Shown here: piece after piece, positions 18,406-46,800 of the stretch
Numbering within the stretch: the stretch's first letter is position 1
How the letters are laid out: each line of letters begins with the position of its first letter
Virus record (IMG/VR): IMGVR_UViG_3300029305_004466
Reading direction: 5' to 3' (one strand)
DNA from: a virus
Taxonomy: Duplodnaviria > Caudoviricetes
Length of the DNA: 64,000 bases
Program-made: the position numbers and the translations under genes
The notes under the pieces: model-generated
Databases searched by the model: none
What the model was told of the DNA's origin: nothing
What the model saw: only the letters and a program-made list of their open reading frames with translations

Positions 18406-20685
18406 CTACAATGTAGTGAATTCTAGTTCGTAATTGTGAAGCACTGGAGTTATCCAGAAATCTCTTTTGGAATTTTTTCTAAAGATTGCTTTAAGTCTTA
18501 CTTTAGAATCAAAGCTTGGGTAATTTACTTCTATTTTTTCAGACTTTAAAATTGGTCTGTTAAAATAAATGTTTTTGCCATTTGTATAGTACTGAAGTTT
18601 ATTGGTTTTTGTATTAAAGTTTTTATAACTTTCAGAAGGGTTAAACTTATTTGTCACACATTCAATTTGCGTAGTCTTTTCATTTGTTTGGATTATAACG
18701 TTTCCTGTGTCTATGTTAATTATTTTAACATAACTTGAAGTTGAATCAGGATTGTTATGATTATAGTAAGGATAGTTATTTAATTCATAAGCTGAAGCAC
18801 CCGTGCCATTGATAACTTCATATGAATTATTGGCTATAGGATTATCATCAACAATGAATTTTAATTCTTTAGAGTCTTCTGTTGGCATATAAGATACGGT
18901 ATATAAAGCGAAATGGTCTATGTTAGATATTTCAATCGCTTCAACGTTACCATTTTTATCTGTTCTTAAAATATAATCAACGTCTTCTGTTAAGACGGTA
19001 TCATCCATTCTTACGATTGGACGTTGCATTACTTTTTTGAGGTTGCCATCTTTGTCATAAGTATCTACGTTACCACATACAGCTTTATGTCTTAAATAAC
19101 AATAAGCGTAATCAAGCTGGAGTCTTTCACATTCTACATATGTTTTATTTTTAGGACATATTGAATGCCAGTCACTATAGGTTGGGTTTTCTTTTGTCGT
19201 TACATAATATTCAATGTCAGACATTATTCTACCATTATCTTCAGACATAAAATGTTCTTCAGTGGTCGTGATAGATAAGGATTTAATACTGCCTGCCGTT
19301 TGAATTTCTTTTGTTACATAAACGCTTGCTTGCTGAAACTCACAATAATTAGGGATGATATTATAAAAACCATATGTATATTGGTACTTTGTCACAGGAA
19401 GCATTTTGTTTTTATTATTGATAAGTAAATTGTTAATATCAATGTTTTTATTGGTATTAATCTTATTATTAATATACAGCCAAATCGGGTCGTCTGCTGT
19501 TCTATCTAAGTACAGAGGCTTGAATATGGTTGTATTATCCATTAACAAATCTTTGTCTTCTGCTTTTGTAGCATTAAACCAAAGTTCGTTTTTAAACATT
19601 TGGTCTGAAGATATTAAGTAAGTATCCTTAATACAATGTAATTGGTTGATTAAAATATATAATCTCTTACATTTGATTTCAGGAAAATGAAAACTGTATT
19701 CTTTTCTTAATGTGCTCACATCAAGCCATGGGTACTTCGTATTGTGCGGATATAGCACATCATAACAATCGTCATCTTCATTGTCTGTTAAAGAATATCT
19801 GATTGCTATTACGTCTATAGGATAACTACCAAAAGGATTTAATACGAGCTCATTTATTTTTGTCATGGCTTCGAATTGAATACATATTTCACACAATGCT
19901 CCCTTTGGATAATCATAGAAGGAACGATTATAATTTACTAAGTATTCATAATCCTCAAAACCCATTCCTTGTATTTTCATTTCATCATCACAAAGAATAG
20001 TTTCAGCCCAATAGCTTGCTTTGGAAGTATCTATGGCATTCTCCAATTTTGTTTCTGAATTTCGAACCTTGATAAAACCAGAACCATATTGCTTGGTTAA
20101 GAATATTTCTCCAAGTTGTACGCCTGATTTATACATTAAAACGTTTTGCTGTCTTGTATAATTCAACGTTAATGTTTCTTGCTCAGGATTATATTTGGTA
20201 TATACCTCATCCGGCACGAGCTCTCCGTAACGTTCTGTATAATATTTTTTATCGGTTTCTTGATTGTTAGAAGTTCTGAAGTTATCAATGAAATGCTCTG
20301 GATGACCTTCCATACTTATTACTGCTTCAACTTCAGTAAGTTTGTCGTTTAAAATACCAATAGTAGATTTCATTGTATTTATGATACTCTGGTTTAACTT
20401 TTGGTGTTTATTCAGTGTATCGTAAAGCTGGTTAATGTAATCAAAGGTTGTTAAAATATCAAGGTACAATTCGTATGATGTCTTATTGTAAGCATCTGCA
20501 TCAGTAATACCAGACTGTAAACGTAAATTAGTAGTCAATGTTTTTGACTCCATATCAGATAACAGTTCTGATTTATATGCGGCTTTTTGTAATTCAGACA
20601 TATGCCCCATGTTTAACAGCTCTTCTATAATTTTATCTACCATTTTTTCTCTAATAGAATTTAACGTATTATCTTGTATCTGCAT
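18406..20685 (-). CDS. Virion structural protein (paralogous family)
   Basis: ATG 20685 after AGGAGGA; NAIDTSKASYW; TPVLHNYEL. Confidence 0.65.
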   Translation of the reverse strand: MQIQDNTLNSIREKMVDKIIEELLNMGHMSELQKAAYKSELLSDMESKTLTTNLRLQSGITDADAYNKTSYELYLDILTTFDYINQLYDTLNKHQKLNQSIINTMKSTIGILNDKLTEVEAVISMEGHPEHFIDNFRTSNNQETDKKYYTERYGELVPDEVYTKYNPEQETLTLNYTRQQNVLMYKSGVQLGEIFLTKQYGSGFIKVRNSETKLENAIDTSKASYWAETILCDDEMKIQGMGFEDYEYLVNYNRSFYDYPKGALCEICIQFEAMTKINELVLNPFGSYPIDVIAIRYSLTDNEDDDCYDVLYPHNTKYPWLDVSTLRKEYSFHFPEIKCKRLYILINQLHCIKDTYLISSDQMFKNELWFNATKAEDKDLLMDNTTIFKPLYLDRTADDPIWLYINNKINTNKNIDINNLLINNKNKMLPVTKYQYTYGFYNIIPNYCEFQQASVYVTKEIQTAGSIKSLSITTTEEHFMSEDNGRIMSDIEYYVTTKENPTYSDWHSICPKNKTYVECERLQLDYAYCYLRHKAVCGNVDTYDKDGNLKKVMQRPIVRMDDTVLTEDVDYILRTDKNGNVEAIEISNIDHFALYTVSYMPTEDSKELKFIVDDNPIANNSYEVINGTGASAYELNNYPYYNHNNPDSTSSYVKIINIDTGNVIIQTNEKTTQIECVTNKFNPSESYKNFNTKTNKLQYYTNGKNIYFNRPILKSEKIEVNYPSFDSKVRLKAIFRKNSKRDFWITPVLHNYELEFTTL

Positions 20686-20695
20686 ACCAATCCTC

Positions 20696-22507
20696 CTAGA
20701 GTAGATTTCTTTGAGCATAGAAATCACATTTTATTTGTCCATCTATTATTTCATTAGGTAGTTTAGCTTTTTCTATTAAAGGTTGGAATTTGATATACAT
20801 TTTATTATCACTTGTAATTCCACTACTTATAATAAATTCATTTGTTATATATGGTAATTTCACTGCATTATTATTATATAATAATTCTGCTTGCATTTCT
20901 ACAGTATTACCATTATAGTTTGTATCCATTAAGGTATAGTCTATTATGGATTCTTGTGGTTCTGGATTTATTTCATCACTAAAAGTTAATCCTATAAATT
21001 TAATATCAAGGAATTTAGAATTCTGTTGAGAGAAACAGCCATATCCATAAGAAGACGGCTGTGTAAATTCATTGGCGTATTGTGTGCTATTAAGGTCTAA
21101 TGTTATACATGGAGTTTCACTTATTATGTCTGAATTAGCTGCTGAACGATATATCGTAAACTTTAATCTATCTCGTACAATTTTAACTCTTACTGTTTGA
21201 TTAGACCATTCCCCTATTGAGGGAAAACTTGAATCATAAGCCAATTCTTTAGTTACACCAGAACTATAACCGTAACCATACATTACGCAAAAATTATGAG
21301 GTGTATTAGTATGGCTTGTTAAAGTACCTGTTACGTTTAAAGTTATAGGATATACATTGCCAGTTTCTTCATCAATGTATGTGGCAAGTACAATACTTAT
21401 TGTATCATTATCACCATCTGAAGAAGTTAATGTAACTTCATGTGTATACTTATTAAATTTAGATGAACTTAAAAACATTGTATGATATGTCGTGTCGTTA
21501 ATTAAACAAACAACACTACCTACGCTTGCATCATAACTCCATCTACTAGTTTTATCTGTACCAGAAAAATATGTAGTGGTACTTCCAGCTAAAGCAACAA
21601 CATCAGAACCATCGTACATAGCTTGCATTGAATCTCCGTTACTAGAAGATACGTCACTTTCTGTATACGTTAAGAAATCTTCTATTTTAAAGTATTGAGT
21701 AAATGCATGTAATGAATTATTGTTAGCGATATCTTTTATATTGTCAAATAAAGCTTTATCCGGTTTTGGTTTAATTGTTTCTTTAATAGGTCTTAATTCT
21801 ATTATCTTATCATCTGTATATTTTTGTAATACTTTTTTTAATTCAGAATCTAAGTGTCTTATATATTTTTTTATATCATCAAATTCTATAATCATGTTTC
21901 TAATTGTTTTTTCATAGGTATCATAAGTGTTTCTTAATTCCGTTTTTCTGATTGTGAGCAATTGTAATAAAGGTAATATTATAGACATTAGCTGTTCAAG
22001 TTCTATTAAATCTATTTGGTCTTTTGTACCTGTATAAATTATTTTATCTAATACTTTTAAATTTGTATGTAAGTGTTTTGAATAACCTGTCACTTCTTTT
22101 TTGAGACTGTCTAAAGTTTCTCGTAACTCATTAACGTTTTTAATTAAATGATTATGTGCTGTTGGTTCTCTTTTATCATTTAATCTTGGGTCATTTCCTT
22201 CACATATTGTATCTTTTTCAATTCCAAAATCTTTATTAAAAGCAGTCTTTTTATCAAATGCTCTTTCTCCATTAAGACTTCGAATATCAATATTTACGAT
22301 ACCCGCTTTATTATTTAAAGCATCCACTCCGCTTCTTTCGTAAAGGATTGTGTTTTTGTATCTAGTAATTGCCTCTGTAATAATAGCATTAATAGTTTCT
22401 TTATTATTTAGTTCCTCTATATCAAAATATCTTTTGACTATTCTCAAAAGATATCTTTCTACATTATCAAGTTCTTTAACGTAATAGTTATTATCTTTTT
22501 CAAGCAT
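20696..22507 (-). CDS. Tail fibre-like protein
   Basis: CEGNDPRLND.R.P.AHNH tail-repeat motif, coiled coil, beta-rich C-terminal domain. Confidence 0.65.
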   Translation of the reverse strand: MLEKDNNYYVKELDNVERYLLRIVKRYFDIEELNNKETINAIITEAITRYKNTILYERSGVDALNNKAGIVNIDIRSLNGERAFDKKTAFNKDFGIEKDTICEGNDPRLNDKREPTAHNHLIKNVNELRETLDSLKKEVTGYSKHLHTNLKVLDKIIYTGTKDQIDLIELEQLMSIILPLLQLLTIRKTELRNTYDTYEKTIRNMIIEFDDIKKYIRHLDSELKKVLQKYTDDKIIELRPIKETIKPKPDKALFDNIKDIANNNSLHAFTQYFKIEDFLTYTESDVSSSNGDSMQAMYDGSDVVALAGSTTTYFSGTDKTSRWSYDASVGSVVCLINDTTYHTMFLSSSKFNKYTHEVTLTSSDGDNDTISIVLATYIDEETGNVYPITLNVTGTLTSHTNTPHNFCVMYGYGYSSGVTKELAYDSSFPSIGEWSNQTVRVKIVRDRLKFTIYRSAANSDIISETPCITLDLNSTQYANEFTQPSSYGYGCFSQQNSKFLDIKFIGLTFSDEINPEPQESIIDYTLMDTNYNGNTVEMQAELLYNNNAVKLPYITNEFIISSGITSDNKMYIKFQPLIEKAKLPNEIIDGQIKCDFYAQRNLL

Positions 22508-23679
22508 TATTGAATCTCCTTAAAACTATTAATTACACTTATTCTTACTTTTATAGAAGCATTTTTAAGGTAATCAGCCCAATTTGTAATGTTCTCATTT
22601 TTTGTACTCATTACGTTAATGGTTCCGAAATAAAATGAAGTCTTTATAGTATAAGATATACTTTCATTTTCTGTTATGATAACAGGTAAATTAGTAGTAA
22701 CTTCTTTTTTTAAGTCTGGGTCAGTATATGTAATATAGTAATCTATTTTATACTGAGCATCTGTATATTCTTTTAATTCTTCATTAATCTCTTCTGGAAG
22801 ACTGGAATAAAATTGTCCATTTGCATTTATGAAGTCAGTAATTACACCTTCATATAAAATATGATACTGGGTATTTAATGCCTGAATTAAATTATTATAG
22901 TCATCTTTTGATATTTTCTTTTCTAATTCTTCTTCTACTTCTTCTTTAAATTCTTGTAATTCGGTATCAAAATATTCTTTAACTTGTGCTTCTAATAAAC
23001 TATCTTGTTCTCGTGCATATGCTTTTATTTCTTCAGAATTATATTGCTCTAATATTTCTCTTATTTCGGTTATCAAAGCTGGCATTTTTTGATTAACATC
23101 TGTAATAACTTCTTCAGCGTCTGTTATTTTTTCGTTAATCATGTCTTCTGCTTTTTCTAATAGAATTAAATCTATTACATCTTTGGTCCCGGAGTAAATA
23201 AGTTTATCCAAAACCTTTTTATTGTCGTGAGAGTGGTTCTGGTCATCAAGTGCATTGATTAAATTTCTTAAATTACTGAGCTCGCCTTCAAGACCATTTA
23301 TCTCTGAAATTTCATGAGTATGTTCAAGAGGTTGTCTTTTATCATACAATCTAGGGTCATCGCCTTCACAGGCAGTGCCTTCTGTTGTTCCAAAGTTTAC
23401 ATTAAACGCATTTCTTTTAGGGGAGATTAAAGGCTCTCCCCCAAGTTCTTCAAGAGTTATAGTAACATTACCTGTTTTACCATTTACGCTTATAACACCT
23501 GCATTATCTATGGTGAGTTCTTCACGCATTCGCTCTACGGCTTTTTTAATAATATATTCTTTGGAATCGTTATCTACGTTATTAGATTCAAAGAAACGCT
23601 TTATTATATCTAACAAATAACGTTCTACACTATCTGTGCCTTTTATATAATTACCATTACTTAATTCTTCTATTCTCAT
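22507..23679 (-). CDS. Tail fibre-like protein, paralog of the downstream gene
   Basis: GVISVNGKTGNVTIT and CEGDDPRLYDKRQPLEHTHEISEINGL motifs. Confidence 0.7.
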   Translation of the reverse strand: MRIEELSNGNYIKGTDSVERYLLDIIKRFFESNNVDNDSKEYIIKKAVERMREELTIDNAGVISVNGKTGNVTITLEELGGEPLISPKRNAFNVNFGTTEGTACEGDDPRLYDKRQPLEHTHEISEINGLEGELSNLRNLINALDDQNHSHDNKKVLDKLIYSGTKDVIDLILLEKAEDMINEKITDAEEVITDVNQKMPALITEIREILEQYNSEEIKAYAREQDSLLEAQVKEYFDTELQEFKEEVEEELEKKISKDDYNNLIQALNTQYHILYEGVITDFINANGQFYSSLPEEINEELKEYTDAQYKIDYYITYTDPDLKKEVTTNLPVIITENESISYTIKTSFYFGTINVMSTKNENITNWADYLKNASIKVRISVINSFKEIQ

Positions 23680-24038
23680 GATGACGCTCCTGAATTATTA
23701 TTGATTAAAGCCTGCAATTCATTGTTAAGTCTTGTATAGTCTTCATCTATGTCGCCATTGGTACTAGCAGAACGCTGCTCAACAGTTGTAACAACATTTT
23801 CAATCTGATTCTTAGAATTGAGATAATCTTGATACCCCAGTTTAACCAGTTGTGTTAAATTAGAATCTGGGTATACAGTCTTTGTAAAAGCAAGCCTGTT
23901 ATCATTTTCTGGATTATAGTATAAGGATACTGTATCAAGAGGTTCTCTAACTTCTACTACTTTATCCTGCTGAGCTCGGTCACGTACAATTATTGTTATA
24001 CCGTCACTGTTACTGTCATCGCCAATGGCTGTCTCAGG
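23676..24038 (-). CDS. Start-less 120-codon frame; probable +1 frameshift extension of 24034..24693
   Basis: Open from CCT at TTT CCC TGA to a TGA overlapping the next ATG; no usable start codon. Confidence 0.7.
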   Translation of the reverse strand, partial: PETAIGDDSNSDGITIIVRDRAQQDKVVEVREPLDTVSLYYNPENDNRLAFTKTVYPDSNLTQLVKLGYQDYLNSKNQIENVVTTVEQRSASTNGDIDEDYTRLNNELQALINNNSGASS

Positions 24039-24693
24039 GAAAACGCTGGAGGTCAGGATTTGTTAAACCGTAGTCTTTTTCAACCTGTGCATCCCAATAT
24101 AATATAGCGTAGCCATTTATTATTGGACTTTCTCCTAAGGCGTTCTTTGTTATTTCGGTTACTAACTCAAAACCGTATTTAATATTACTTGATAAGTGCA
24201 GTGGAGTTTTTAAAGCATTAGGGCTTATCGGGTATCTTTCTCCACTTATAAGTTTTAAATAATATTTAATACCAGCTCCAACTGGGACGTATTGGTTAGT
24301 AATCAAGAAAAAGTCATTTAATTCTATTTCTTCTCCATGAACACTATGTATTTTTGTACTTGTAATAGTACAAGAGGCATTCCTGCTATCTACATATACG
24401 TTTTTTAATTTAGGGTCTAATACATGATTTTCTGAGTCTACTTTGTTTATGTATTGCCCATTTTCATAGACATCTATAAACATGGCATTTGTATATAAGT
24501 TATTCTCGAATATAGTATAGACACGTTCTTGGAATGCTGTATCTTTAAGAAGGTTGGAATCTTCTTGTTGTGTATTTATATTTTGTTGTATCTGATTAAC
24601 GTCCTGTGCGTCTATTCTTTCTGTTGAATTGTTTACATGTCTTTTATATTTGGTATACCGTCTTGTAGTATCCACATTATTTAAAGTTGCCAT
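24034..24693 (-). CDS. Virion structural protein ending in TTT CCC TGA
   Basis: RBS AGGAG; IDAQDVNQIQ and SPIINGYAI motifs. Confidence 0.75.
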   Translation of the reverse strand: MATLNNVDTTRRYTKYKRHVNNSTERIDAQDVNQIQQNINTQQEDSNLLKDTAFQERVYTIFENNLYTNAMFIDVYENGQYINKVDSENHVLDPKLKNVYVDSRNASCTITSTKIHSVHGEEIELNDFFLITNQYVPVGAGIKYYLKLISGERYPISPNALKTPLHLSSNIKYGFELVTEITKNALGESPIINGYAILYWDAQVEKDYGLTNPDLQRFP

Positions 24694-29489: not shown

Positions 29490-32400
29490 CTAATAACTTA
29501 TTATTTCAATAGACTTTTCTAAATTTGTCATATCGTCTAATAAAACTTTTGCAGTAATAGTATCAGTTCCTGTTATAGTAGAAGAAGTATATATACAATG
29601 GACAACTCCATTCATATCTGTTTCTTGAGATTCATAAGTGACTGTCCCAATGTTACAATCTATATCAACTTGTTTCCCTATAATAGGATTGCCGATAATA
29701 TCGAGAACCTCTATTTGGATATCTATATTATCTCTACCGCCTGCCTTTACACGTTTCGGATTGCACCAGATGTTTATCTTATAAGGAGTATTGTGCTCTT
29801 CAGTAAGATAAATAAAACCGCTGTAATCTGTTCTGTAAACCGGGTTAAGACTGAGTTTTTTAGCTACTAGTTTATTGTTTTGTTTATTAGTTTCAAACAT
29901 TACTTTAAACTTTTTATCTGTATTATCTTCGCCTGTATAAACAGTAATGACAGTTGTATTTAATTTTCTATCTATATTGGCGTAAAAAGAATTTTTTATC
30001 TTATAAGTAACTACTATTTCATCATTTATATTCAAAAAGTTTTTAAACATTAATAAGTGATTAACAATAAAATAATCAGTTATCTCTTCATCATTTACCC
30101 ACACTTTAAGTGTTCCTAATTCATAATCATTTCGCTTTAACTCTACATAGTTTTCACGAACTTGCATTGTATGAATTTCAGTTAACATCATAGTAGCAGG
30201 GTCTACATTGTATATTTGTTTTAAAGGAATTCCATTTTCATCTTCTATTGTTATTGGGCAATATTGTTGTGGGGTTCCTTTAATTTTTATTTGGTTATCT
30301 GTAGCCTTTATATATGGCAGGTAGCTAATTTTATCCATTGTGGCTTCAGAAGTAGCAGCCTCTACAGAAGATTCTAATAAATCAACATAACTGAGTGTAT
30401 TATCATATAAAAGATAGTTATCAGGATTCATTGATGTAATAGAAATATTCTTTACTTCTTCTACTGAGAAACCTCTGCTTATAATTTCTGATGATAAGTA
30501 ATCCCCTATTCTAGGAATAATTTCATGATACATTCCGTCTTTAGGAATTGTAAATGTTTCTAACTTCATAAAGTTTGCAGTAGTATTTACTGGAACATAT
30601 CTTCCTGTCATACTAATTGATTTAATATATGGAAGTGTTATTTCACTTTCAAGTGTTCTTGTTTTTAATCTTAACCAGTATACTTTTTCTTTTTCTGGGA
30701 TAGTAATCTTGAATCTATAATACTTGTATTTTAAATTAAGATTAGTACTAGTATAAGGTTGCCATTTTATATTCTCTAATATCAAGTCATTGATACTATT
30801 AGAATAAGCAACATTTAATACTACGTTTTTATTAGAACTATACATGTCTAACTCTAATCCAGTTTCACATCCATATTGCAGTATATTAGAAATTGCAACA
30901 CCTTCTCCTTCAGCAAGTCCTGTTGTTATATGGTCTGTAATAGTGACTATATTTTTACTAAGGTTTTCATCTAAGTAATCACACCAGTCGAGATAACAAC
31001 ATAAATAATCTTCTGAATCATATACTGTATGTTGTTCTGTTGCTGATATATCGGCTTTAAGTTGATAACCACAGCTTAATGTTGCAGGTGTAGAATTATT
31101 AGTGAAACTAGTCCAGTCTGTCCATTTACCTTCTTCTAAGTTAAAACTTCTGATAAACAAATTAAGTCCAGCACTAGAACCATCTGTATTCTGGTAAGTA
31201 AGTTTTAACGGTCCAGCTTGCGTTAAAGCGTTATCGAATAATAACACTGGAGAATACCAAGTCTGTGTTTCGTAATGCTTATATTTCAAACCAGAAATTA
31301 CAGGTTTTAATGTAAGTCCTTGTCCTGCTATCCATTCAAAATGTTTTTCATCTTGAAGGAGTTCAGCCATTGTATCTTTTGTAATGGAATAATTCTCAAC
31401 AGGTCCAGCTGCTTTTTCAAGACTAACATTGAAATTAACAAATACCGTAGTGTTCTGGTATTGTGTTTCAACTGTCTTTTCAAAATCAGCTTCTACATCA
31501 AAATCAGAATATAAGTATTTCTCATGCTGGTTGATGTAATAATAACCATTATGAATTCTAGGGCTCCATTTGGAGGTCGCATTTATAACACCTCTATATG
31601 TCACAGGTAACATATAAGTATCTGAATCACCGAAATCTATTCTTGACGGATAACGTGTTGCTAATACATCGCCATTGTCAGTGGTTACTTCGATAAAATA
31701 GTTGTCATATATATCACCTTCCGGCTTTGTGATTGTTTGTATTTTTTCATAAGGCTCTTGGTTAAAAAGTTCTATCTCTTCTGTTTCCAAAGTGGCTAAC
31801 GTCTTTGTATATTTGATGTCTTTATAAGTAAGACTTTCAGAACTGAATGTAACATAATCTCCATTTACTTGAGTATAACCAGAGCCCGGTGCTGTTTCAT
31901 GGTCCCATTTATATGACACGAGAGCATCTTCTGGATACTTATCTGTAATCTTGATATAGATTTTTATAGTATCTGCATGATTTGCAAGTACTGTTGTTGG
32001 GATATTAAATTCTGGTGTATCAACAAATAAATCTTGTTTACCAGATAAATTATCGCTTCTATATCTGCCGTTTACTAATCCGTACATAGAGTCCATATTT
32101 TCATTAGGATATTCATCGTAATAATCCTGAGTCTTTGTCATCTTACGAGCATAGAAATGCACATATTGTGTAATCCAGTGCCCATCATTTTCATAGATGC
32201 CTTTACTTGAATTCCAGTTAGCATTTAAACCATATTCAAATACTAAAGGAGATTTCACAGGATTCTCACAATCAAATAAACTATAGTAATTATCATTTAT
32301 TCCATCGCTGTTTATTTCTACGTTATTTGCATAATAAACAGTGAGTCTTATTAAATGTTTATCTGAAGAATCTTTAAATGCATCTGGAAGTATTTCATGA

Positions 32401-35261
32401 TATGGAGTATAAGCCTCAGGGTCAACTAAGTTAAATCTGTAATTTAAGACAGGAGAGCTATACGCCTTATCTATTTTTACAATCATATCTTTATCAATAC
32501 CATCACCAAATACCTGCATATAATTAGGGTCTGGTAAATTCTCTACTAATATCTTTTTAGAGATTTTTTTAGAGTTAATGCCAGAACTTCCATAAGTTAT
32601 GCTAGGGTTAAGACGATTTTCCATTTTAGCTAAATCAGCTCTACGGAACATAGTGTCTTGAGGTTTTTTATAACTGTTTACTATTACATGATTACTTCTG
32701 ATGGTATCATAAATAATTCCATCAGTAAAACCAGAGATATATAAGAAAGAACTATTTGTAGCTACATATTCATCGTCTGTATTGGTTGATGTTGATAGCT
32801 TTGGAATATCTGAAGTAACATTAATTGTTCCCATCATACCATAACTATATTTTTTAAAAGAAGAATTAGGAGTATCTTCAGCTCCATAACTATAACTGTC
32901 TATAATGTGAATATTTTTAAATATATCACCTGTTACATTGCCGTTACCATCTACGGCATGTGGATTATCGGTCCAGCCATTTTGCCACTCTTCACTGTTT
33001 TCTTTTGCCTCTGTTAATAAATCTAATATAGACCTGTCACTCATTCTGGTAAGTTCTAGCTTACTAACGATTTCTGCTCTATGTGTTTTATCGCTATAAG
33101 CAACAGGAGTAACATGTTCATTAAATACAAATGATACTGGTTCAGATTCAATATAAACTGTTTTATATTCAACAGATGTATAAGGAATTGATATTTCTAT
33201 ATCACCAGTTTTTAATTCTTCAGTTACAGAACCTTCTAAAATCATATTAAGACTTTCAATAAAAGCACCTTTAACAGATTGAGCATCATTTTCATTATTT
33301 TCTCTTTCATCTATTTTTATTTCTAGAAAATCTATTGTTTTTCCTTTAGCGTATTCATAGCCAACGTAACCCATAGCTTCTGCTATTCCACCTTTGGCAC
33401 AATCTCTTATTTTTCCTTGACAATTATCAATATAACTTTCAGTGTAAAATGTGTTATCATCATTAAAACCCCCTACAGCTCTATTACCAAATACAACGAA
33501 TATTTTGTCAGCAGGACATTCTTTTATACTATTTTCGATATCCTTATACATGTTGTTCCATCTTATTTGGTCATTGGTGGTTTTTGTACCATCTGGCTGT
33601 TTATCTCCTTGGTAATAATATGGAGCATTTGGATAACCGTCTGTAAAGAATAACATGCAGATATTCTCTTTACCAGATTTAATAAGCCCACGTTCTTTAG
33701 CATCTGTAAAGCCATCGCCCCAGTTTGTTCTGTTGCCGACTTTTTTATCACCAACAATACCGTCACCATTACCTATATAATATGTTGTACCATTTAATAT
33801 GTATGGATAATCAGTTTTTTCACTCATAACACCACACATTAATCCATTGATTATTTCTTTAGCTTTATCTCCATCAGGACAATGAACGGAATATGCAGTA
33901 GTACCATAACCAGTAACTATATAATCAAGTTGTCTATTTTTTTCGTCATAAGTACTTAAACTAGTTATTCGTTTTTCTATTTCATCAATAAAAGCATAAG
34001 AAGCCTCTTTTACTTTCTCAAGTCTTCCTAAAGTTGGTTTAGCACTTTTACTGTCTGCTTTAGCGACAACCGTTTCACCTTTTTCATTCTCTCTAGGCAA
34101 TCTCATGGAAGAAGATAGGTCGATAGAAATTATAATGGTTGTTGGTTTTGTTACTGCTTCAATAACTGTTGTTTCTTTCCATTCAACTTCTTTTTTGACA
34201 GTATTATGATTTTCTGTTTCTCTAAATAAATCTACATAAGCACAAATTTTTGCATAAACAGTTATAGGTTTTGTAGTCCATAAATATTCAGAGCGATACA
34301 TCTCTTGCCATGGATATGCGTCTAATTTAAAAGTAACTTCACCTTCTTGTTCGGTAATAGTTTCTTTTGCTTCGAGACATATTTTATAATTAAAACCTAC
34401 TTGATTATAACGTTTCTCTCTTTGAGTATATTCACCAGTAAGAGTAAAGTAAGCTTTAAATTTTTCATAGAAATCTTTATCCATTTGTTTGTAAACTTTT
34501 AAATCATTTAAATCACCGATACCAGATTTGAAAGCTGTTAAATTTTCTTCAACAACTTCACGCTCTTTATCAGTAATGGACCAGTCATGTTTTCTTTCTA
34601 TGAAATATTTATCAAGACTAATTTGCGGATTAACAGTCTCAGTAACAGAAGTAACTTCTGCTGAAGGTTGAGAAGTCTGTGTGTCCGTATAGTTAATAAG
34701 TTTTCTTGTGTATGCTGTATTAGGCTCTAAACCTGTTTCTATGTAGTACTTAGCTCCCATTGGAATAGTAGCTATAATTTTTACTTTATCATCTTCAGAC
34801 TCATAATCTTCTATTTCATAGATTAAGTAATGAGCATACTGTTCATCAGATTCATCCCATGTCCATACAATTGTACTGGAATCATATGCTTTTCCATATA
34901 AAGTAGGAACAGGTAATGGTTGCTCTTTAGGATAAACATAACATCTAACGTCAGGTGTTAATGTAAATTCATTAACATTAACAGGATTCTCAAAGAATAC
35001 TTCTGCACCTTCTGTTAATGTTATTATTTCATATTCATCTATAACAACATTATCAGTTGTAATTAATTCAGCTTCACAGTAGTCTTCTACTTCTTGCATG
35101 AATAAATCAAGAACATAAACGCTGCTATGTAATACATGATAGTTATCGTATAAAACATTATCATCAGCTGTAATTTCAGATTCGAAATTCTTGTTAAAGA
35201 TTACAGAACTGTTTGTTATGTTATTAAATACTGTAAGTTTTACGGTGTATGATATTAACAT
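29490..35261 (-). CDS. Giant baseplate/fibre adhesin with FN3, vWA and C-terminal invasin-type Ig domain (1923 aa)
   Basis: FN3: SSTIVWTW...ETGLEPNTAYT; vWA: ISIDLSSSM...T...FFTDGYPN; Ig: VLDIIGNPI...ETDMNGVV...GTDTITAK. Confidence 0.75.
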   Translation of the reverse strand: MLISYTVKLTVFNNITNSSVIFNKNFESEITADDNVLYDNYHVLHSSVYVLDLFMQEVEDYCEAELITTDNVVIDEYEIITLTEGAEVFFENPVNVNEFTLTPDVRCYVYPKEQPLPVPTLYGKAYDSSTIVWTWDESDEQYAHYLIYEIEDYESEDDKVKIIATIPMGAKYYIETGLEPNTAYTRKLINYTDTQTSQPSAEVTSVTETVNPQISLDKYFIERKHDWSITDKEREVVEENLTAFKSGIGDLNDLKVYKQMDKDFYEKFKAYFTLTGEYTQREKRYNQVGFNYKICLEAKETITEQEGEVTFKLDAYPWQEMYRSEYLWTTKPITVYAKICAYVDLFRETENHNTVKKEVEWKETTVIEAVTKPTTIIISIDLSSSMRLPRENEKGETVVAKADSKSAKPTLGRLEKVKEASYAFIDEIEKRITSLSTYDEKNRQLDYIVTGYGTTAYSVHCPDGDKAKEIINGLMCGVMSEKTDYPYILNGTTYYIGNGDGIVGDKKVGNRTNWGDGFTDAKERGLIKSGKENICMLFFTDGYPNAPYYYQGDKQPDGTKTTNDQIRWNNMYKDIENSIKECPADKIFVVFGNRAVGGFNDDNTFYTESYIDNCQGKIRDCAKGGIAEAMGYVGYEYAKGKTIDFLEIKIDERENNENDAQSVKGAFIESLNMILEGSVTEELKTGDIEISIPYTSVEYKTVYIESEPVSFVFNEHVTPVAYSDKTHRAEIVSKLELTRMSDRSILDLLTEAKENSEEWQNGWTDNPHAVDGNGNVTGDIFKNIHIIDSYSYGAEDTPNSSFKKYSYGMMGTINVTSDIPKLSTSTNTDDEYVATNSSFLYISGFTDGIIYDTIRSNHVIVNSYKKPQDTMFRRADLAKMENRLNPSITYGSSGINSKKISKKILVENLPDPNYMQVFGDGIDKDMIVKIDKAYSSPVLNYRFNLVDPEAYTPYHEILPDAFKDSSDKHLIRLTVYYANNVEINSDGINDNYYSLFDCENPVKSPLVFEYGLNANWNSSKGIYENDGHWITQYVHFYARKMTKTQDYYDEYPNENMDSMYGLVNGRYRSDNLSGKQDLFVDTPEFNIPTTVLANHADTIKIYIKITDKYPEDALVSYKWDHETAPGSGYTQVNGDYVTFSSESLTYKDIKYTKTLATLETEEIELFNQEPYEKIQTITKPEGDIYDNYFIEVTTDNGDVLATRYPSRIDFGDSDTYMLPVTYRGVINATSKWSPRIHNGYYYINQHEKYLYSDFDVEADFEKTVETQYQNTTVFVNFNVSLEKAAGPVENYSITKDTMAELLQDEKHFEWIAGQGLTLKPVISGLKYKHYETQTWYSPVLLFDNALTQAGPLKLTYQNTDGSSAGLNLFIRSFNLEEGKWTDWTSFTNNSTPATLSCGYQLKADISATEQHTVYDSEDYLCCYLDWCDYLDENLSKNIVTITDHITTGLAEGEGVAISNILQYGCETGLELDMYSSNKNVVLNVAYSNSINDLILENIKWQPYTSTNLNLKYKYYRFKITIPEKEKVYWLRLKTRTLESEITLPYIKSISMTGRYVPVNTTANFMKLETFTIPKDGMYHEIIPRIGDYLSSEIISRGFSVEEVKNISITSMNPDNYLLYDNTLSYVDLLESSVEAATSEATMDKISYLPYIKATDNQIKIKGTPQQYCPITIEDENGIPLKQIYNVDPATMMLTEIHTMQVRENYVELKRNDYELGTLKVWVNDEEITDYFIVNHLLMFKNFLNINDEIVVTYKIKNSFYANIDRKLNTTVITVYTGEDNTDKKFKVMFETNKQNNKLVAKKLSLNPVYRTDYSGFIYLTEEHNTPYKINIWCNPKRVKAGGRDNIDIQIEVLDIIGNPIIGKQVDIDCNIGTVTYESQETDMNGVVHCIYTSSTITGTDTITAKVLLDDMTNLEKSIEIISY

Positions 35262-41872: not shown

Positions 41873-42691
41873 TTACAATACGACAATATTATCTACTTCT
41901 GTACTTAATGCAAATCTTTCAAACCATCTACATGATTGATTTACATATAAAGCTTTTTGATTATTAATCCAGTATTCAAGATTCTGGATATTTAAAATAT
42001 TTTCAGAAGTATTCATTATAACTTGCGTTAATTTGTCTACAAGAATATCTTCGCCAACTTCAAGTGTATTAATATAGTCAGCTAGGTTACTTTGTACTTC
42101 GTATTTAATAGTCTGAGCATCTGCATCAGATATATTATCTTTTAAGTACAGTTTATATTTAAACTTAACGTATGTAAGTGTAGGTGTTACAACTTTGAAT
42201 TTGATACCATACCCTACTGTTTCGCTTATTTTATTTGTTACAGCGTCATTAACAGTATCAGCATCGTATCCAGTTTCTATAATAACAATAACAGTGAAAG
42301 TGCCTGTACCCATTGCATAAGGCTTAAGTTTAACATCATATACACCTTCTGTTGTTAAGGCTGCTAATCTAACAGCGGTTTCATTGGAAGATGCTAATAT
42401 TAAACATTGTTGTGAAATTCTATATCTGTAATCGTCATCTGTTTCGCCACTGGTTCTTTTACATTGAAGTAATCCGCCAATAGCATCAAGAGCATTACCA
42501 TCTGATGTTGACAAAAATGCTCTTAAATGATTTACAGTTAAAACTGTGTAGAATGTTGATAAGTTTTTATTTATGATGCTAAGGAACAATCTTGCTATAG
42601 TTCCCGGACTATCACTAAACCCTATATTGGTTAATTCTTTTAATGATTCTGTTTGTAGTTCATCAAAAGTTTTTGTATTAAGAACTATCAT
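41873..42691 (-). CDS. Baseplate J/gp47-like protein
   Basis: GNALDAIGGLLQCKRTSGETDDDYRYRI; GTGTFTV. Confidence 0.8.
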   Translation of the reverse strand: MIVLNTKTFDELQTESLKELTNIGFSDSPGTIARLFLSIINKNLSTFYTVLTVNHLRAFLSTSDGNALDAIGGLLQCKRTSGETDDDYRYRISQQCLILASSNETAVRLAALTTEGVYDVKLKPYAMGTGTFTVIVIIETGYDADTVNDAVTNKISETVGYGIKFKVVTPTLTYVKFKYKLYLKDNISDADAQTIKYEVQSNLADYINTLEVGEDILVDKLTQVIMNTSENILNIQNLEYWINNQKALYVNQSCRWFERFALSTEVDNIVVL

Positions 42692-43818: not shown

Positions 43819-46800
43819 TTACTCCTCATATACAGTCTTTTCGTCTTCATCAACAGTTTGTGAATCTGCAATTGTATCAGGTGAAACATTGCTTGAACCA
43901 GTTAATAATAATTTTTCTCCTGATAAAATAGGAGCGTAAGGTATTCCTTTGTGTCTCATAGGAAGTAATACTACCATGTTATTGTAACTAAGGAAATCTA
44001 TAATCTTAGTGAGTAATATATCTGCTATTGTACCTACAACAAAACCAACTATAGCAGCGGCTGCGACACCAATTGGTCCACCAACTGCACCTGCTACACC
44101 ACCAGCTTTTGCACCTAATAGTTTAAGACTTTTAAAACCTCGTTTTCCGAGTGAAATTGAATGCTTAACAATTGATTTACCAATTTTTGATATACTATTG
44201 GTTTTGCTTATTGTTTTTTTAATTCCGCTAAAACTCTTTACTGCATATTTAAGATTTTTAAATTCTTTTCCTAAATCTGCCCATTTGATAGCTTTTATAC
44301 CTCCAATAATTTCTTCACTTTTATCAAAGATTTGATACAGCTTTTTACCTGCTGTTCCAACAAGAAGCAATGTATCTATATTTCGTATACTTGTCATTAA
44401 GAATAATGACCAACTAAAAGTATTAAGATAATTAGCAAGTAATTCTACATTATCTTTTATTACTTTTTTAACAGAAGCACGGTAAGCAAAAGCCTCACAT
44501 AACGAAGTCATATTAGCTAAATTGACATTAGCGTTTGAAGCCGCTTCTGTATTAAGTGCTATCATACCCGGAACAACAGTTGTTACAAAACCAGTTCTTG
44601 CACTCAAGGTATGCGTAACAGTTCTTGCGACACATAAGCCAGTAAGTTCATTATATCTATCATTTACATACATATAATCGTCTGGTTCTATACCTGCATC
44701 ACCAAGAAGCATTAAATCGCCCTGATATGCCTTTTGCCAGTTCCACAATAACTGAGTTACACCTACACGGATAGCCGCTTGCTTACCTACATCAAAGCCA
44801 CCGAGCTCCCATAATATATCAGGACCTATCCAGTTTTGTACTATTGAAGAGTCGAATATCTTAGTACTTTGTAATGAGTTACTAACGGTTTTGTCTGAAT
44901 ATATGGTAGGTGATGCTTTTACTGTTTTACCAAGAGTATACATTACAATATTATTTGTGTATACATCTCTTGAAGAAGTTACCATTTGGTTATCTATAAT
45001 TTCTGTTAAACTATCTATGAAGTGACATTGAGCAAATGCTTTAGCTTCTTCATAGATTTCACCATTTATCATATTATATCTGTACTTTGCAAGATACCAC
45101 GGTAAGCCGAAGAATAATCTTGATTCGAATTGATGGTACATTGGCATACCGAGGAATTCTGGGGCATTCATTACAGCCATCTGAATTGCATCCCATGGTG
45201 TCTTATTGTATTTATTAAATACCATGTTCTTTTCGCCATCAAACGTTGGAGCTGCTGGATTATACATTGCTAATGAACCTCTGTAGACTTCTTGACCAAT
45301 TAATCCCCAGTTAGTTCCTGCTCTGTAAATATTTTTATTTAAATCGTATTGTACTTCGTTCCAAGATTTAATTAATCCATCACCGAGTTTTTTACCGCCT
45401 GCTACTATAACTTCTCCAGCAGTAGTGACAAAATTTACAACTCCGTCAACAATTGTTGCTCCGAGCACTACGACTTCTTTTGTTATTGGTATACCATTTT
45501 CTGTATATGTTGTTTCAATAGTTGAACCTTGCACTACACCTGCTAAGTTTGAACTCCAACCACCAAAGAATTCTATTTTTTCACTAAAGTATAAACCAAA
45601 GTGTTCGATACCAAATTTATTTGGCTCACCCCAGTTTTTGCTTACTTTAGCCAGCCATGATTGTCTTGCACTTAATATATCCATACATAAGTTAGAAGAC
45701 TCTTTGTTGGTTGAATCTTTTGGACTATCAGAAGTAATAGAATTGACAAGTTCTACACCATCAGATACACATACAAACTGTACGATGTCACCTAATTGTA
45801 AATCGCTTATATAACCATTCATTACAATTGGGAGTCCCAATGGGTCAGAGCCATAGCCCATACGTAAATGCATACGGCATCCTGCTCTTACAACCATTGA
45901 ATCATAAATGATATTCTTTTGTTCTATTAAAGTTTTAGTAAGCTTTGGACCAATACCCGGAAGCATACCGAACTGGTTATACAATAAAAGTTGGAATTTA
46001 CTATAGCCGTCATCTGTTGATGTAACCAAATTGCCATTATTGTCCATAGTCGGACTGTAATAAAAAGAATTTGGTGGTAATGTATCGAGATTACCATAAG
46101 AATTAGTAACAGTAATAGTGGCTGTGTTTACAGGAGAATCATTATTACTTACTACTTGTATATCAACAAGTGAACGTAACATATAATAATTTGCCCATAA
46201 TTTTTTACCATTTAACCAGTTACCGTCTTCGTCAACAATACTGAAAAGATAAGTAGGGAATGCTTTTATTAAGCGTCCTTTACCGGAGAACTCACATTGG
46301 TTAACAAATGAGCTCATCAATCTTTGAGTATTTGTATTATAGTTATTCCTATATCTTTCTTCTTGATTTTGTAACCCTTTACCTTCTAATATGCCACTTA
46401 CAATTCCGCCATCTTCATCCATTTCTGATGTCTTTATTATTACTGGCTTACCGAATCTTTTAATTTTATCGCTAGTTAATTCTGTAACTCCTGTGCTAGT
46501 TGTTTTAATAACTTCTGTAACAGGTTCTGTTATTGAATTAACGTTATTATTGTCATCTACAAGAATATATTTTTTATCTAAAGATTTAGCAAACTTTTCT
46601 CCCCAGAATATAAAGTCACCTATTGTACCAGCTTCATCGTACACTTTGTCACAAACTGTTCTATCTGAAAAAGGAGAATTTGGACCCATGTAAAATCTCA
46701 ATTGTTTTTCGTATGCTTTTTTGCCATTGCAAAACACATCTTTAACCATTATATGTGCAGAACTATTTGTAGATAATAATTCTTTGCTTGCTCCATTAAA

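What the first reader, a model, noticed from the sequence alone, without database searches (positions are those of the whole stretch)
23676..24045. Probable programmed +1 ribosomal frameshift at TTT CCC TGA
Seen: the 219-aa gene ends CGT TTT CCC TGA. The apparent ~355-nt gap after it is fully open in the +1 frame (PETAIGDDSNSDGITIIVRDRAQQDK...NNNSGASS, 120 codons). This frame has no ATG/GTG and only a late TTG, is closed by a TAA shortly upstream, and its TGA overlaps the next gene's ATG. Known: CCC-stop +1 shifts give extended virion proteins in Listeria phages PSA/A118 and Bacillus phage SPP1. Inference: 219-aa and ~338-aa isoforms, here in a baseplate/fibre-region gene rather than a major capsid or tail-tube gene.
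Basis: partly seen in the sequence, partly recalled or inferred. Interest (0 to 1): 0.75.

Follow-up and report, generated by a model that had tools for sequence, protein, structure and literature searches.

The report
Conserved +1 frameshift, phage virion gene
A virion-protein gene of an uncultured ~210-kb gut phage is split by one base at the "shifty stop" UUU-CCC-UGA. Relatives keep this site and the downstream frame, so ribosomes almost certainly slip +1 there to make a 338-aa protein beside a 219-aa one: a new example of a known trick.

Summary
On the minus strand the 219-aa ORF (24693..24034) ends CGT TTT CCC TGA. The +1 frame is open for 120 codons to a TGA that overlaps the next gene's ATG.

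It is not an assembly error. Contigs from three other studies carry the same site without an indel.

All 23 other distinct related loci I fetched (52-88% aa identity in the last 99 residues of the upstream part) need a +1 shift at the same codon:
- The site reads TT(T/C) CCC TAG or TGA. It is CCC in 23 of the 24 loci, window included, although CCC is only 0.7-7% of proline codons elsewhere.
- The +1 ORF has no conserved start codon.
- In 10 loci the +1 frame opens only two codons before the site.
- The +1 ORF is under purifying selection (dN/dS 0.04-0.2 in close pairs).

Natural in-frame relatives exist, and the predicted fusion aligns with them without a gap across the junction. One PHROG family covers both halves colinearly.

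No conserved RNA structure or SD-like stimulator was found.

The N-terminal module is homologous to that of gp167, a virion protein of Bacillus phage 0305phi8-36.

Verdict: a real +1 ribosomal frameshift at a CCC-stop site, needed to express the conserved C-terminal part, and a new member of the PSA/SPP1 kind. Efficiency and the role of the short form are unknown. First-stage notes of this scan describe the same TTT CCC TAG site in three windows of two other genomes.

The parts
24034..24693 (-). 0-frame ORF, the 219-aa short isoform. It has a disordered N-terminus, a long helix and a beta-sandwich domain, and ends ...NPDLQRFP-stop.
   Evidence: It hits phrog_28136 positions 14-197. An identical 219-aa product is on 15 contigs, the longest 210 kb. 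Its N-terminal ~200 aa are homologous to 0305phi8-36 gp167 (hhalign 95%).
24034..24045 (-). Shift site CGT TTT CCC TGA. CCC (24039..24037) would sit in the P site and UGA (24036..24034) in the A site. Peptidyl-tRNA-Pro re-pairs on CCU (24038..24036), and GAG becomes the next codon.
   Evidence: Across the 24 loci the site codon is CCC in 23, and the stop is TAG in 20 and TGA in 4. CCC is 8 of about 20,830 codons in the window's ORFs, and this is the only CCC-stop.
23676..24038 (-). +1-frame extension of 120 codons including the re-paired Pro, plus its stop. It encodes a second beta domain and a C-terminal helix of the 338-aa long isoform.
   Evidence: It hits phrog_28136 positions 199-278. It is conserved in the +1 frame in all 24 loci with dN/dS 0.04-0.2 in close pairs. 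It has no conserved start codon. Domain layout comes from the AF2 model of the in-frame homolog P0004.
23676..23679 (-). ATGA overlap: the stop of the +1 extension overlaps the start of the next gene (22507..23679, a 390-aa fibre-like protein).
   Evidence: ATGA in most frameshift relatives. It is also seen in some in-frame relatives from the called gene coordinates. The next gene hits tail-protein PHROGs.

Best explanation
This is a programmed +1 ribosomal frameshift at a "shifty stop". Ribosomes translating the virion-protein gene reach ...CGU UUU CCC UGA with peptidyl-tRNA-Pro on CCC in the P site and the stop codon in the A site.

Some ribosomes terminate and release the 219-aa form, which holds the N-terminal helix and beta-sandwich module. 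In the others the tRNA-Pro slips one base forward onto CCU, GAG is decoded, and translation continues for 119 more codons. That gives a 338-aa form with a second beta domain and a C-terminal helix.

Shown here: the site, its conservation, selection on the +1 frame, the lack of any start codon, and the equivalence of the fusion to in-frame homologs.

Inferred: that the ribosome rather than the RNA polymerase makes the shift, that the slip is on CCC, and that both isoforms are made. The efficiency, and whether the short form has a role of its own, are not known.
For: 1. Anatomy is as described.

2. One family spans both pieces colinearly (phrog_28136).

3. All 24 distinct loci (window plus 23 from IMG/VR and metagenomes, 52-88% aa identity in the last 99 residues of the upstream part) have the upstream part in frame f and the downstream part in frame f+1. 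The junction is at the same codon.

4. The site is conserved against a background of synonymous change.
- The site codon is CCC in 23 of 24 loci, against 6.6% CCC among the other Pro codons of these genes and 0.7% in the window's long ORFs.
- A control invariant Pro seven codons upstream uses all four codons.
- The Arg codon two codons upstream uses six different codons.
- The stop is TAG (20) or TGA (4) and never TAA, although TAA ends 28 of the window's 43 ORFs.

5. In 10 loci the +1 frame opens only two codons before the CCC, in 5 more only three. This pins the shift to the last few codons. Two loci have TTC CCC, which leaves CCC as the common slip codon.

6. There is no conserved ATG, GTG or TTG in the +1 ORF. 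In many loci the first is at codon 97-123 of about 134.

7. The +1 ORF is under purifying selection like the upstream part. dN/dS is 0.04-0.2 in close pairs, and variation peaks at the third codon position.

8. True in-frame relatives exist and translate as called. They carry CCA, CCT or ACT at the equivalent codon. One reads TTC CCT GAG ATA GAA, which is the L024 site sequence (window-type, TGA G) minus one C over the bases compared. The fusion aligns to them without a gap.

9. It is not an assembly error. Contigs of three other studies cover the site with nearby SNPs and no indel.

10. CCC_UGA is an established +1 shift-prone sequence used by Listeria phages, and CCC_UAA by SPP1 and Q54. E. 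coli pheL, which ends UUC_CCC_UGA (Phe-Pro-stop, as here), shifts at 15% (PMC3082878).
Against: - There is no protein or RNA evidence, and no RNA run holding the stretch was listed.
- No conserved downstream structure was found. RNAalifold gave 0 pairs, and the window's 70 nt downstream fold no better than shuffles (z = +0.9).
- There is no SD-like element in the window.
- Bare CCC_UGA gives only about 2% shifting in E. coli. The long form could therefore be scarce, or an unseen stimulator exists.
- In-frame relatives manage without the site, so the short isoform is not universally needed. The frameshift state may be a tolerated leaky mutation rather than one selected for a fixed ratio.
- One locus (L025, a 1.4-kb contig) has CCT instead of CCC.
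- The binomial figure for CCC conservation ignores shared ancestry.
Confidence: 0.85

Rival explanations
1. Sequencing or assembly indel: the gene is really one in-frame ORF, and an extra C was introduced in the TTTTCCC run.
For: The site is a short homopolymer run, and in-frame relatives differ from it by a single C.
Against: The identical 219-aa product is on 15 contigs. Contigs of three other studies, with their own SNPs, show no indel at the site. The other 23 divergent loci, from many samples, have the same extra base at the same codon.
Confidence: 0.01
2. Tolerated leaky frameshift mutation, not selected as such. A single C insertion in CCT GAG or CCT AGY happened to create an inherently shifty CCC-stop. 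Enough long protein is still made, and the short form is a useless by-product. The mechanism is the same as in the best explanation; only the word 'programmed' is in question.
For: One C insertion or deletion interconverts the two states. The states are interspersed on the tree, with 6-8 changes, at least 3 of them forced by strongly supported branches. The wider family at 25-41% identity is mostly in-frame at 280-320 aa. No stimulatory element was found.
Against: The frameshift state persists through deep divergence: synonymous sites are saturated, and one clade of 11 loci is entirely frameshifted. It also dominates the close relatives, at about 95 of the 120 best clusters. A one-base deletion would cure it, so a costly state should not last. 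CCC and a single-release-factor stop are kept throughout.
Confidence: 0.3
3. Split gene: the downstream ORF is translated on its own, from a non-canonical start or by reinitiation after the stop. This would give two separate polypeptides that assemble non-covalently.
For: The shift site lies in a low-confidence inter-domain linker, where a split would be tolerated structurally.
Against: There is no conserved ATG, GTG or TTG, and no SD, near the start of the +1 ORF. Conserved residues begin directly at the site. The codon at the only recurring I/V position varies among ATA, GTA, GTT, GTC and ATT. In 10 loci the +1 frame opens only two codons upstream.
Confidence: 0.05
4. Transcriptional slippage: RNA polymerase drops one base in the T/C run, so a share of mRNAs are in frame.
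For: The net effect would be the same as a +1 shift. The site contains T3-4 and C3-4 runs.
Against: From established knowledge, productive slippage needs runs of about 7 or more identical bases. Here the runs are 3-4 bases, and they vary (TTTTCCC, GTTTCCC, GTTCCCC) while CCC-stop stays fixed. Strict retention of a stop codon right after CCC is explained by a ribosomal mechanism and not by a polymerase one.
Confidence: 0.04

Closest known systems
CCC_UGA +1 frameshift in structural genes of Listeria phages (PSA type), as summarised in PMC3082878
   Same: The shift site is the same (CCC in the P site, UGA in the A site). It lies at the 3' end of a virion-protein gene and gives a C-terminally extended second isoform.
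   Different: The gene family is different: a gp167-like baseplate/fibre-region protein of a ~210-kb phage, not a major capsid or tail protein of a ~40-kb siphovirus. Most relatives use UAG. No downstream structure was found here. I could not read the primary PSA paper to compare stimulators.
Bacillus phage SPP1 gp17.1/gp17.1* and Lactobacillus phage Q54 (CCC_UAA +1 frameshift; PMC3082878)
   Same: A CCC-stop shifty site in a phage of a Gram-positive host, with short and long forms of one tail protein.
   Different: The stop is UAA there. In this family it is UGA or UAG and never UAA in 24 loci. The protein family and its place in the virion differ.
E. coli pheL, UUC_CCC_UGA (15% +1 frameshifting; PMC3082878)
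   Same: The last two codons plus stop are the same (Phe-Pro-stop). No 3' stimulator is needed there, and the effect comes from the last few codons or the nascent peptide.
   Different: In pheL the +1 product is unconserved and apparently incidental. Here the +1 ORF is a conserved protein domain under purifying selection.
prfB (RF2) autoregulatory +1 frameshift, CUU_UGA with an upstream SD-like stimulator
   Same: A +1 slip of the P-site tRNA at an in-frame stop. Eight TAG-type relatives have GAGG three bases before the CCC, at prfB-like spacing.
   Different: The window and most relatives have no SD-like sequence. The slip codon differs, and there is no evident autoregulatory logic.
Bacillus phage 0305phi8-36 gp167 (virion structural protein found by mass spectrometry)
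   Same: The N-terminal ~200-aa module is homologous (hhalign probability 95%, E 4.5e-8; best BFVD fold match is a 591-aa protein, the length of gp167, identity inferred). The position is syntenic, a few genes upstream of the gp171 homolog.
   Different: gp167 is a single 591-aa ORF with an unrelated C-terminal part and no frameshift. Sequence identity is only about 21%.

Membership tests
Shifty-stop (CCC_stop) +1 programmed ribosomal frameshift sites | The P-site codon can re-pair in the +1 frame (CCC followed by U gives CCU). | tested here: met
   The window reads TTT CCC TGA. The site codon is CCC in 23 of 24 loci.
Shifty-stop (CCC_stop) +1 programmed ribosomal frameshift sites | A slow-to-decode 0-frame stop codon lies immediately 3' of the slip codon. 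| tested here: met
   The stop is TGA in the window and TAG or TGA in all 24 loci.
Shifty-stop (CCC_stop) +1 programmed ribosomal frameshift sites | The +1 ORF has no start of its own and encodes a conserved continuation of the protein. | tested here: met
   No conserved start codon. dN/dS is 0.04-0.2 in close pairs. PHROG hits are colinear. The fusion aligns without a gap to in-frame homologs.
Shifty-stop (CCC_stop) +1 programmed ribosomal frameshift sites | The site is conserved among homologs beyond what the amino-acid sequence requires. | tested here: met
   CCC is at the site in 23 of 24 loci, against 6.6% elsewhere in these genes. In-frame relatives use CCA, CCT or ACT at that codon. The test ignores phylogenetic non-independence.
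Shifty-stop (CCC_stop) +1 programmed ribosomal frameshift sites | Both the termination product and the frameshift product are detected as proteins. | not testable with these tools
   The phage is uncultured, and no proteome or RNA data are available.
prfB-type +1 frameshift | An SD-like stimulator lies about 3 nt upstream of the slip codon. | tested here: not met
   The window has CAG CGT TTT before the CCC. GAGG is present in only 8 of 24 relatives.
Frameshift sites with a 3' RNA structure (pseudoknot or hairpin stimulator) | A conserved downstream structure with covariation. | tested here: not met
   RNAalifold on 24 sequences from -30 to +75 gave 0 pairs. For the window's downstream 70 nt, z = +0.9.
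Tail assembly chaperone G/GT-type frameshift | [quoted passage not shown] | tested here: not met
   The direction is +1, the site is at a stop codon, and the gene lies in the baseplate/fibre region.
phrog_28136 (unknown function) | A significant match over the length of the profile. | tested here: met
   The two halves match profile positions 14-197 (E 6e-16) and 199-278 (E 2e-6) of 283.
0305phi8-36 gp167-like virion proteins (N-terminal module) | Homology of the N-terminal ~200 residues, and synteny. | tested here: met
   hhalign probability 95%, E 4.5e-8, over 179 columns. The best BFVD fold hit is a 591-aa protein, the length of gp167, with the identity inferred from that. The gp171 homolog lies three genes downstream.

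The most novel reading that the evidence does not exclude
The shifty stop works as an evolvable dosage switch. Single-C indels move lineages between "all long form" and "a set mixture of short and long form" of a baseplate or fibre-attachment protein. In the frameshift state the ratio depends on host release factor (RF1 for UAG, RF2 for UGA) or on tRNA-Pro status. Through the conserved ATGA overlap it would also gate translation of the downstream fibre gene, tying virion fibre make-up to host physiology.
Probability: 0.15. Interest if true: 0.7.

Novelty: new member of a known kind. Interest (0 to 1): 0.5.

Why it matters
- It adds a well-supported recoding event in an uncultured lineage of ~210-kb gut and rumen phages. 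Gene callers there split the gene and leave about 355 nt unannotated in many assemblies: about 95 of the 120 best protein clusters are truncated at this codon.
- It extends CCC-stop +1 frameshifting from small Listeria, Bacillus and Lactobacillus siphoviruses to a different virion protein of jumbo phages, and to UAG as the stop.
- The family offers a natural comparison, because closely related phages carry either the frameshift form or the in-frame form. That makes the old question of what the short isoform is for directly testable.
- For annotation, this gene should be joined as a ribosomal-slippage CDS.

Tried and rejected
- blastn and tblastn of the gene against GenBank phages gave no match. 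Only a neighbouring gene identified the lineage.
- No whole genome is held for the window, and there is no tRNA gene in the window.
- Downstream RNA structure: single-sequence folds gave z mostly between 0 and -2. A GATGATGG...ATCATC hairpin recurs in some relatives, but it follows from the Asp-Asp and Ile-Ile codons and is absent in the window. RNAalifold found no consensus pair.
- SD-like stimulator: rejected for the window.
- Stop-codon readthrough or an alternative genetic code: the 0 frame has further stops straight after the first, in the window and in relatives.
- A slip on TTT to TTC would give the same peptide in the window, but cannot work in the two TTC CCC loci.
- RNA evidence: no RNA holder was listed among the sequencing runs.
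- The runs laid were contigs, not raw reads, so rare variants cannot be excluded.
- Foldseek against PDB gave only weak jelly-roll / CBM6 / CBM35 / PNGase-C-like matches for the first beta domain (TM 0.4-0.46 by target). That is not enough to claim sugar binding.
- Pfam gave nothing significant.
- Rooting with distant in-frame relatives could not decide between one gain with seven losses and four gains with four losses.
- The Dorscht 2009 paper (PMC2786548) is not held.
Full report
**Observation**

All genes in this part of the window run on the minus strand.
- The ORF 24693..24034 encodes 219 aa and ends ...CAG CGT TTT CCC TGA.
- The next called gene starts at 23679, which leaves about 355 nt uncalled.
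- That stretch is open in the +1 frame for 120 codons, from CCT at 24038.
- The +1 frame is closed by a TAA eight codons upstream of the CCC.
- It has no ATG or GTG, and only a TTG at codon 107.
- It ends in a TGA that overlaps the ATG of the next gene as ATGA.
- The 0 frame meets a second TGA seven codons on, so readthrough is not an option.

**One gene, not two**

PHROG family 28136 (283 profile positions) matches both pieces. The 219-aa product covers positions 14-197 (E 6e-16). The +1 product covers positions 199-278 (E 2e-6). The two pieces are therefore colinear parts of one protein family.

I read the gene through with CCCT taken as one proline step. This gives a 338-aa protein.

A search of the large protein collection with this fusion found two kinds of relatives.
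- About 95 of the 120 best clusters are 216-219 aa long at 69-87% identity, so they are cut at the same place. Many come from contigs of 200-233 kb.
- About 25 clusters are 311-363 aa long at 49-72% identity and cover the whole fusion.

The fusion aligns with the long relatives without any gap at the junction: window ...NPDLQRFPETAIG..., relative ...NPDLQRFPETTVG....

**Conservation of the site**

I fetched DNA of relatives from IMG/VR and metagenome contigs. In all 24 distinct loci, window included, tblastn puts the upstream part in frame f and the downstream part in frame f+1. Identity in the last 99 residues of the upstream part ranges from 52% to 88%.

Every one of these genes ends TT(T/C) CC(C/T) followed by TAG or TGA, at the same codon. 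[quoted passage not shown]

Codon counts at and around the site:

| Position | Counts in the 24 loci |
|---|---|
| Site codon | CCC 23, CCT 1 |
| Stop codon | TAG 20, TGA 4, TAA 0 |
| Phe codon before the site | TTT 22, TTC 2 |
| Arg codon two codons upstream | six different codons |
| Control invariant Pro, seven codons upstream | all four Pro codons |

- CCC is otherwise rare. It is 6.6% of the other proline codons of these genes, 3 of 440 proline codons in 16 long ORFs of the window, and 8 of about 20,830 codons in all 43 ORFs.
- The window's site is its only CCC-stop.
- TAA ends 28 of the window's 43 ORFs yet never occurs at the site.
- The naive binomial probability of 23 CCC in 24 loci is about 1e-26. 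It overstates the case because the loci share ancestry, but the contrast with flanking codons is clear.

**Where the shift must occur**

In 10 loci the sequence is ATG AG(G/A) TTT CC(C/T) TAG. Its +1 frame reads TGA just before the site, so that frame is open for only two codons upstream. In 5 more it is open for three. The shift must therefore happen within the last few codons.

In the window a slip on TTT to TTC would give the same peptide. Two loci have TTC CCC, where only the proline tRNA can re-pair. CCC to CCU is the common solution.

**The downstream frame is translated, and not on its own**

Purifying selection on the extension matches that on the upstream part.

| Measure | Extension (+1 frame) | Upstream part |
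|---|---|---|
| dN/dS in close pairs | 0.04-0.2 | 0.04-0.15 |
| Nucleotide diversity at codon positions 1 / 2 / 3 | 0.38 / 0.28 / 0.57 | 0.34 / 0.20 / 0.53 |

There is no conserved start codon. In many loci the first ATG, GTG or TTG lies at codon 97-123 of about 134, far beyond the most conserved residues.

**In-frame relatives are real**

Five long relatives were fetched as DNA, and all translate as called. At the junction they read:
- TTT ACT GAA ACA
- TTT CCA GCT GTT GAA
- TTT CCA GAA ACA
- TTT CCA AAA GTA
- TTC CCT GAG ATA GAA

The last is the L024 site sequence (window-type, TGA G) minus one C over the bases compared. None uses CCC.

A single C insertion into CCT GAG or CCT AGY creates both the frame break and the shifty stop. 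A single deletion undoes it.

On a quick maximum-likelihood tree of 47 proteins the two states are interspersed. There are 6 changes, at least 3 of them forced by strongly supported branches. With distant relatives added there are 8 changes, reconstructed as anything from one gain with seven losses to four gains with four losses.

The wider family at 25-41% identity is mostly in-frame at 280-320 aa and lacks the proline. The two-domain fusion is thus the older architecture, and the frameshift arose within this subfamily.

**Not an artefact**

The identical 219-aa product is on 15 contigs. Contigs from three other studies cover the site with nearby SNPs of their own and no inserted or deleted base. 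These are contigs, not raw reads.

**Stimulators**

None was found.
- RNAalifold on 24 sequences from -30 to +75 predicts no pair.
- The window's downstream 70 nt fold no better than shuffles (z = +0.9).
- A GAGG three bases upstream of the CCC occurs in 8 relatives but not in the window.

Bare CCC_UGA gives about 2% shifting in E. coli. The pheL leader ends UUC_CCC_UGA, so Phe-Pro-stop as here. It reaches 15% through its last few codons without any 3' element (PMC3082878). The efficiency here is open.

**What the protein is**

The window is the structural module of a large phage.
- A baseplate wedge homolog lies at 41873..42691.
- Tail-fibre-like proteins lie directly downstream at 22507..23679 and 20696..22507.
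- The 773-aa protein at 18406..20727 is 27% identical to gp171 of Bacillus phage 0305phi8-36.

An AlphaFold model was made of the in-frame homolog P0004, which is 72% identical to the fusion. Mean pLDDT is 69.

| Residues | Feature | pLDDT |
|---|---|---|
| 1-44 | Disordered N-terminus | below 50 |
| 28-63 | Long helix | about 37-54 |
| 70-200 | Beta sandwich | 80-90 |
| around 205-217 | Low-confidence linker (210-217 below 50), where the shift site falls | about 49-62 |
| 217-309 | Second beta domain | about 57-82 |
| 316-332 | C-terminal helix | about 79-89 |

The best BFVD fold match is a 591-aa protein, the length of 0305phi8-36 gp167 (E 1e-9). I infer its identity from the length. A profile comparison confirms homology of the first ~200 residues with gp167, which is a virion protein found by mass spectrometry (hhalign 95%, E 4.5e-8).

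The family thus has a conserved N-terminal module and a changeable C-terminal part, and the frameshift sits at the boundary. PDB matches of the first beta domain to CBM6-, CBM35- and PNGase-C-type jelly rolls are weak, and I draw no functional claim from them.

**Comparison with what is known**

CCC_UGA and CCC_UAA shifty stops giving extended virion proteins are established in Listeria phages, SPP1 and Q54 (PMC3082878). This case works the same way.

It differs in four respects:
- the protein family and its place in the virion;
- the phage type (~210-kb uncultured gut and rumen phages distantly related to 0305phi8-36);
- the predominant use of UAG;
- the coexistence of frameshift and in-frame forms among close relatives.

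It is not a prfB-type site, because the window has no SD-like element. It is not a G/GT-type -1 site either.

**Verdict**

A real +1 ribosomal frameshift at a CCC-stop site, conserved and needed to express the C-terminal part. It is a new member of a known kind. Confidence in the mechanism is about 0.85.

It remains open whether the short isoform is selected for or is merely a tolerated by-product. First-stage notes of this scan independently describe the same TTT CCC TAG arrangement in three windows of two other genomes. My locus survey bears this out in general, but I did not check those particular genomes.

Noticed in passing
window 1-64000, all 43 ORFs: The CCC codon is almost absent: 8 of about 20,830 codons, and 3 of 440 proline codons in 16 long ORFs. 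This fits avoidance of a shift-prone codon, or a host without a cognate GGG-anticodon tRNA-Pro.
   Followed up: partly
L002, L017, L020, L023, L025, L026, L027, L029 (site -9 to -4): The Arg codon two codons before the slip codon is AGA in only 1 of 24 loci, against 62% AGA elsewhere in these genes. In 8 loci it is AGG, which gives GAGG three bases before the CCC, a prfB-like spacing. This is absent in the window (CGT).
   Followed up: partly
window 22507-23679 (-) and 20696-22507 (-): The two fibre-like genes downstream share an N-terminal domain (phrog_36886 positions 1-125, E 1e-26 and 1e-49). They look like paralogous fibres with a common attachment module and different distal parts.
   Followed up: no
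L007, L016, L022, L023, L025, L028, about 14 nt after the stop: A hairpin recurs, GATGATGG...ATCATC, formed by the Asp-Asp and Ile-Ile/Val codons. z reaches -3.1 in single loci. It is not present in the window and is not picked up by RNAalifold.
   Followed up: partly
L025:636-743: One relative, on a 1.4-kb contig, has TTT CCT TAG instead of CCC at the site. It may be an assembly error, a dead copy, or a less efficient variant. In pheL, changing CCC to CCU cuts shifting by two-thirds (PMC3082878).
   Followed up: no
window 23676-23679, and relatives' gene ends: The ATGA stop/start overlap between this gene's long form and the next fibre-like gene is kept in most frameshift relatives and in some in-frame relatives. 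The next gene also has its own GGAG 7 nt upstream of its ATG.
   Followed up: partly
window 49685-59461, 43819-49635, 29490-35261 (-): Three very large ORFs (3258, 1938 and 1923 aa) lie in the structural module. The 1923-aa one shares its C-terminal ~260 aa with 'virion structural protein' PHROGs 32678 and 21285.
   Followed up: no
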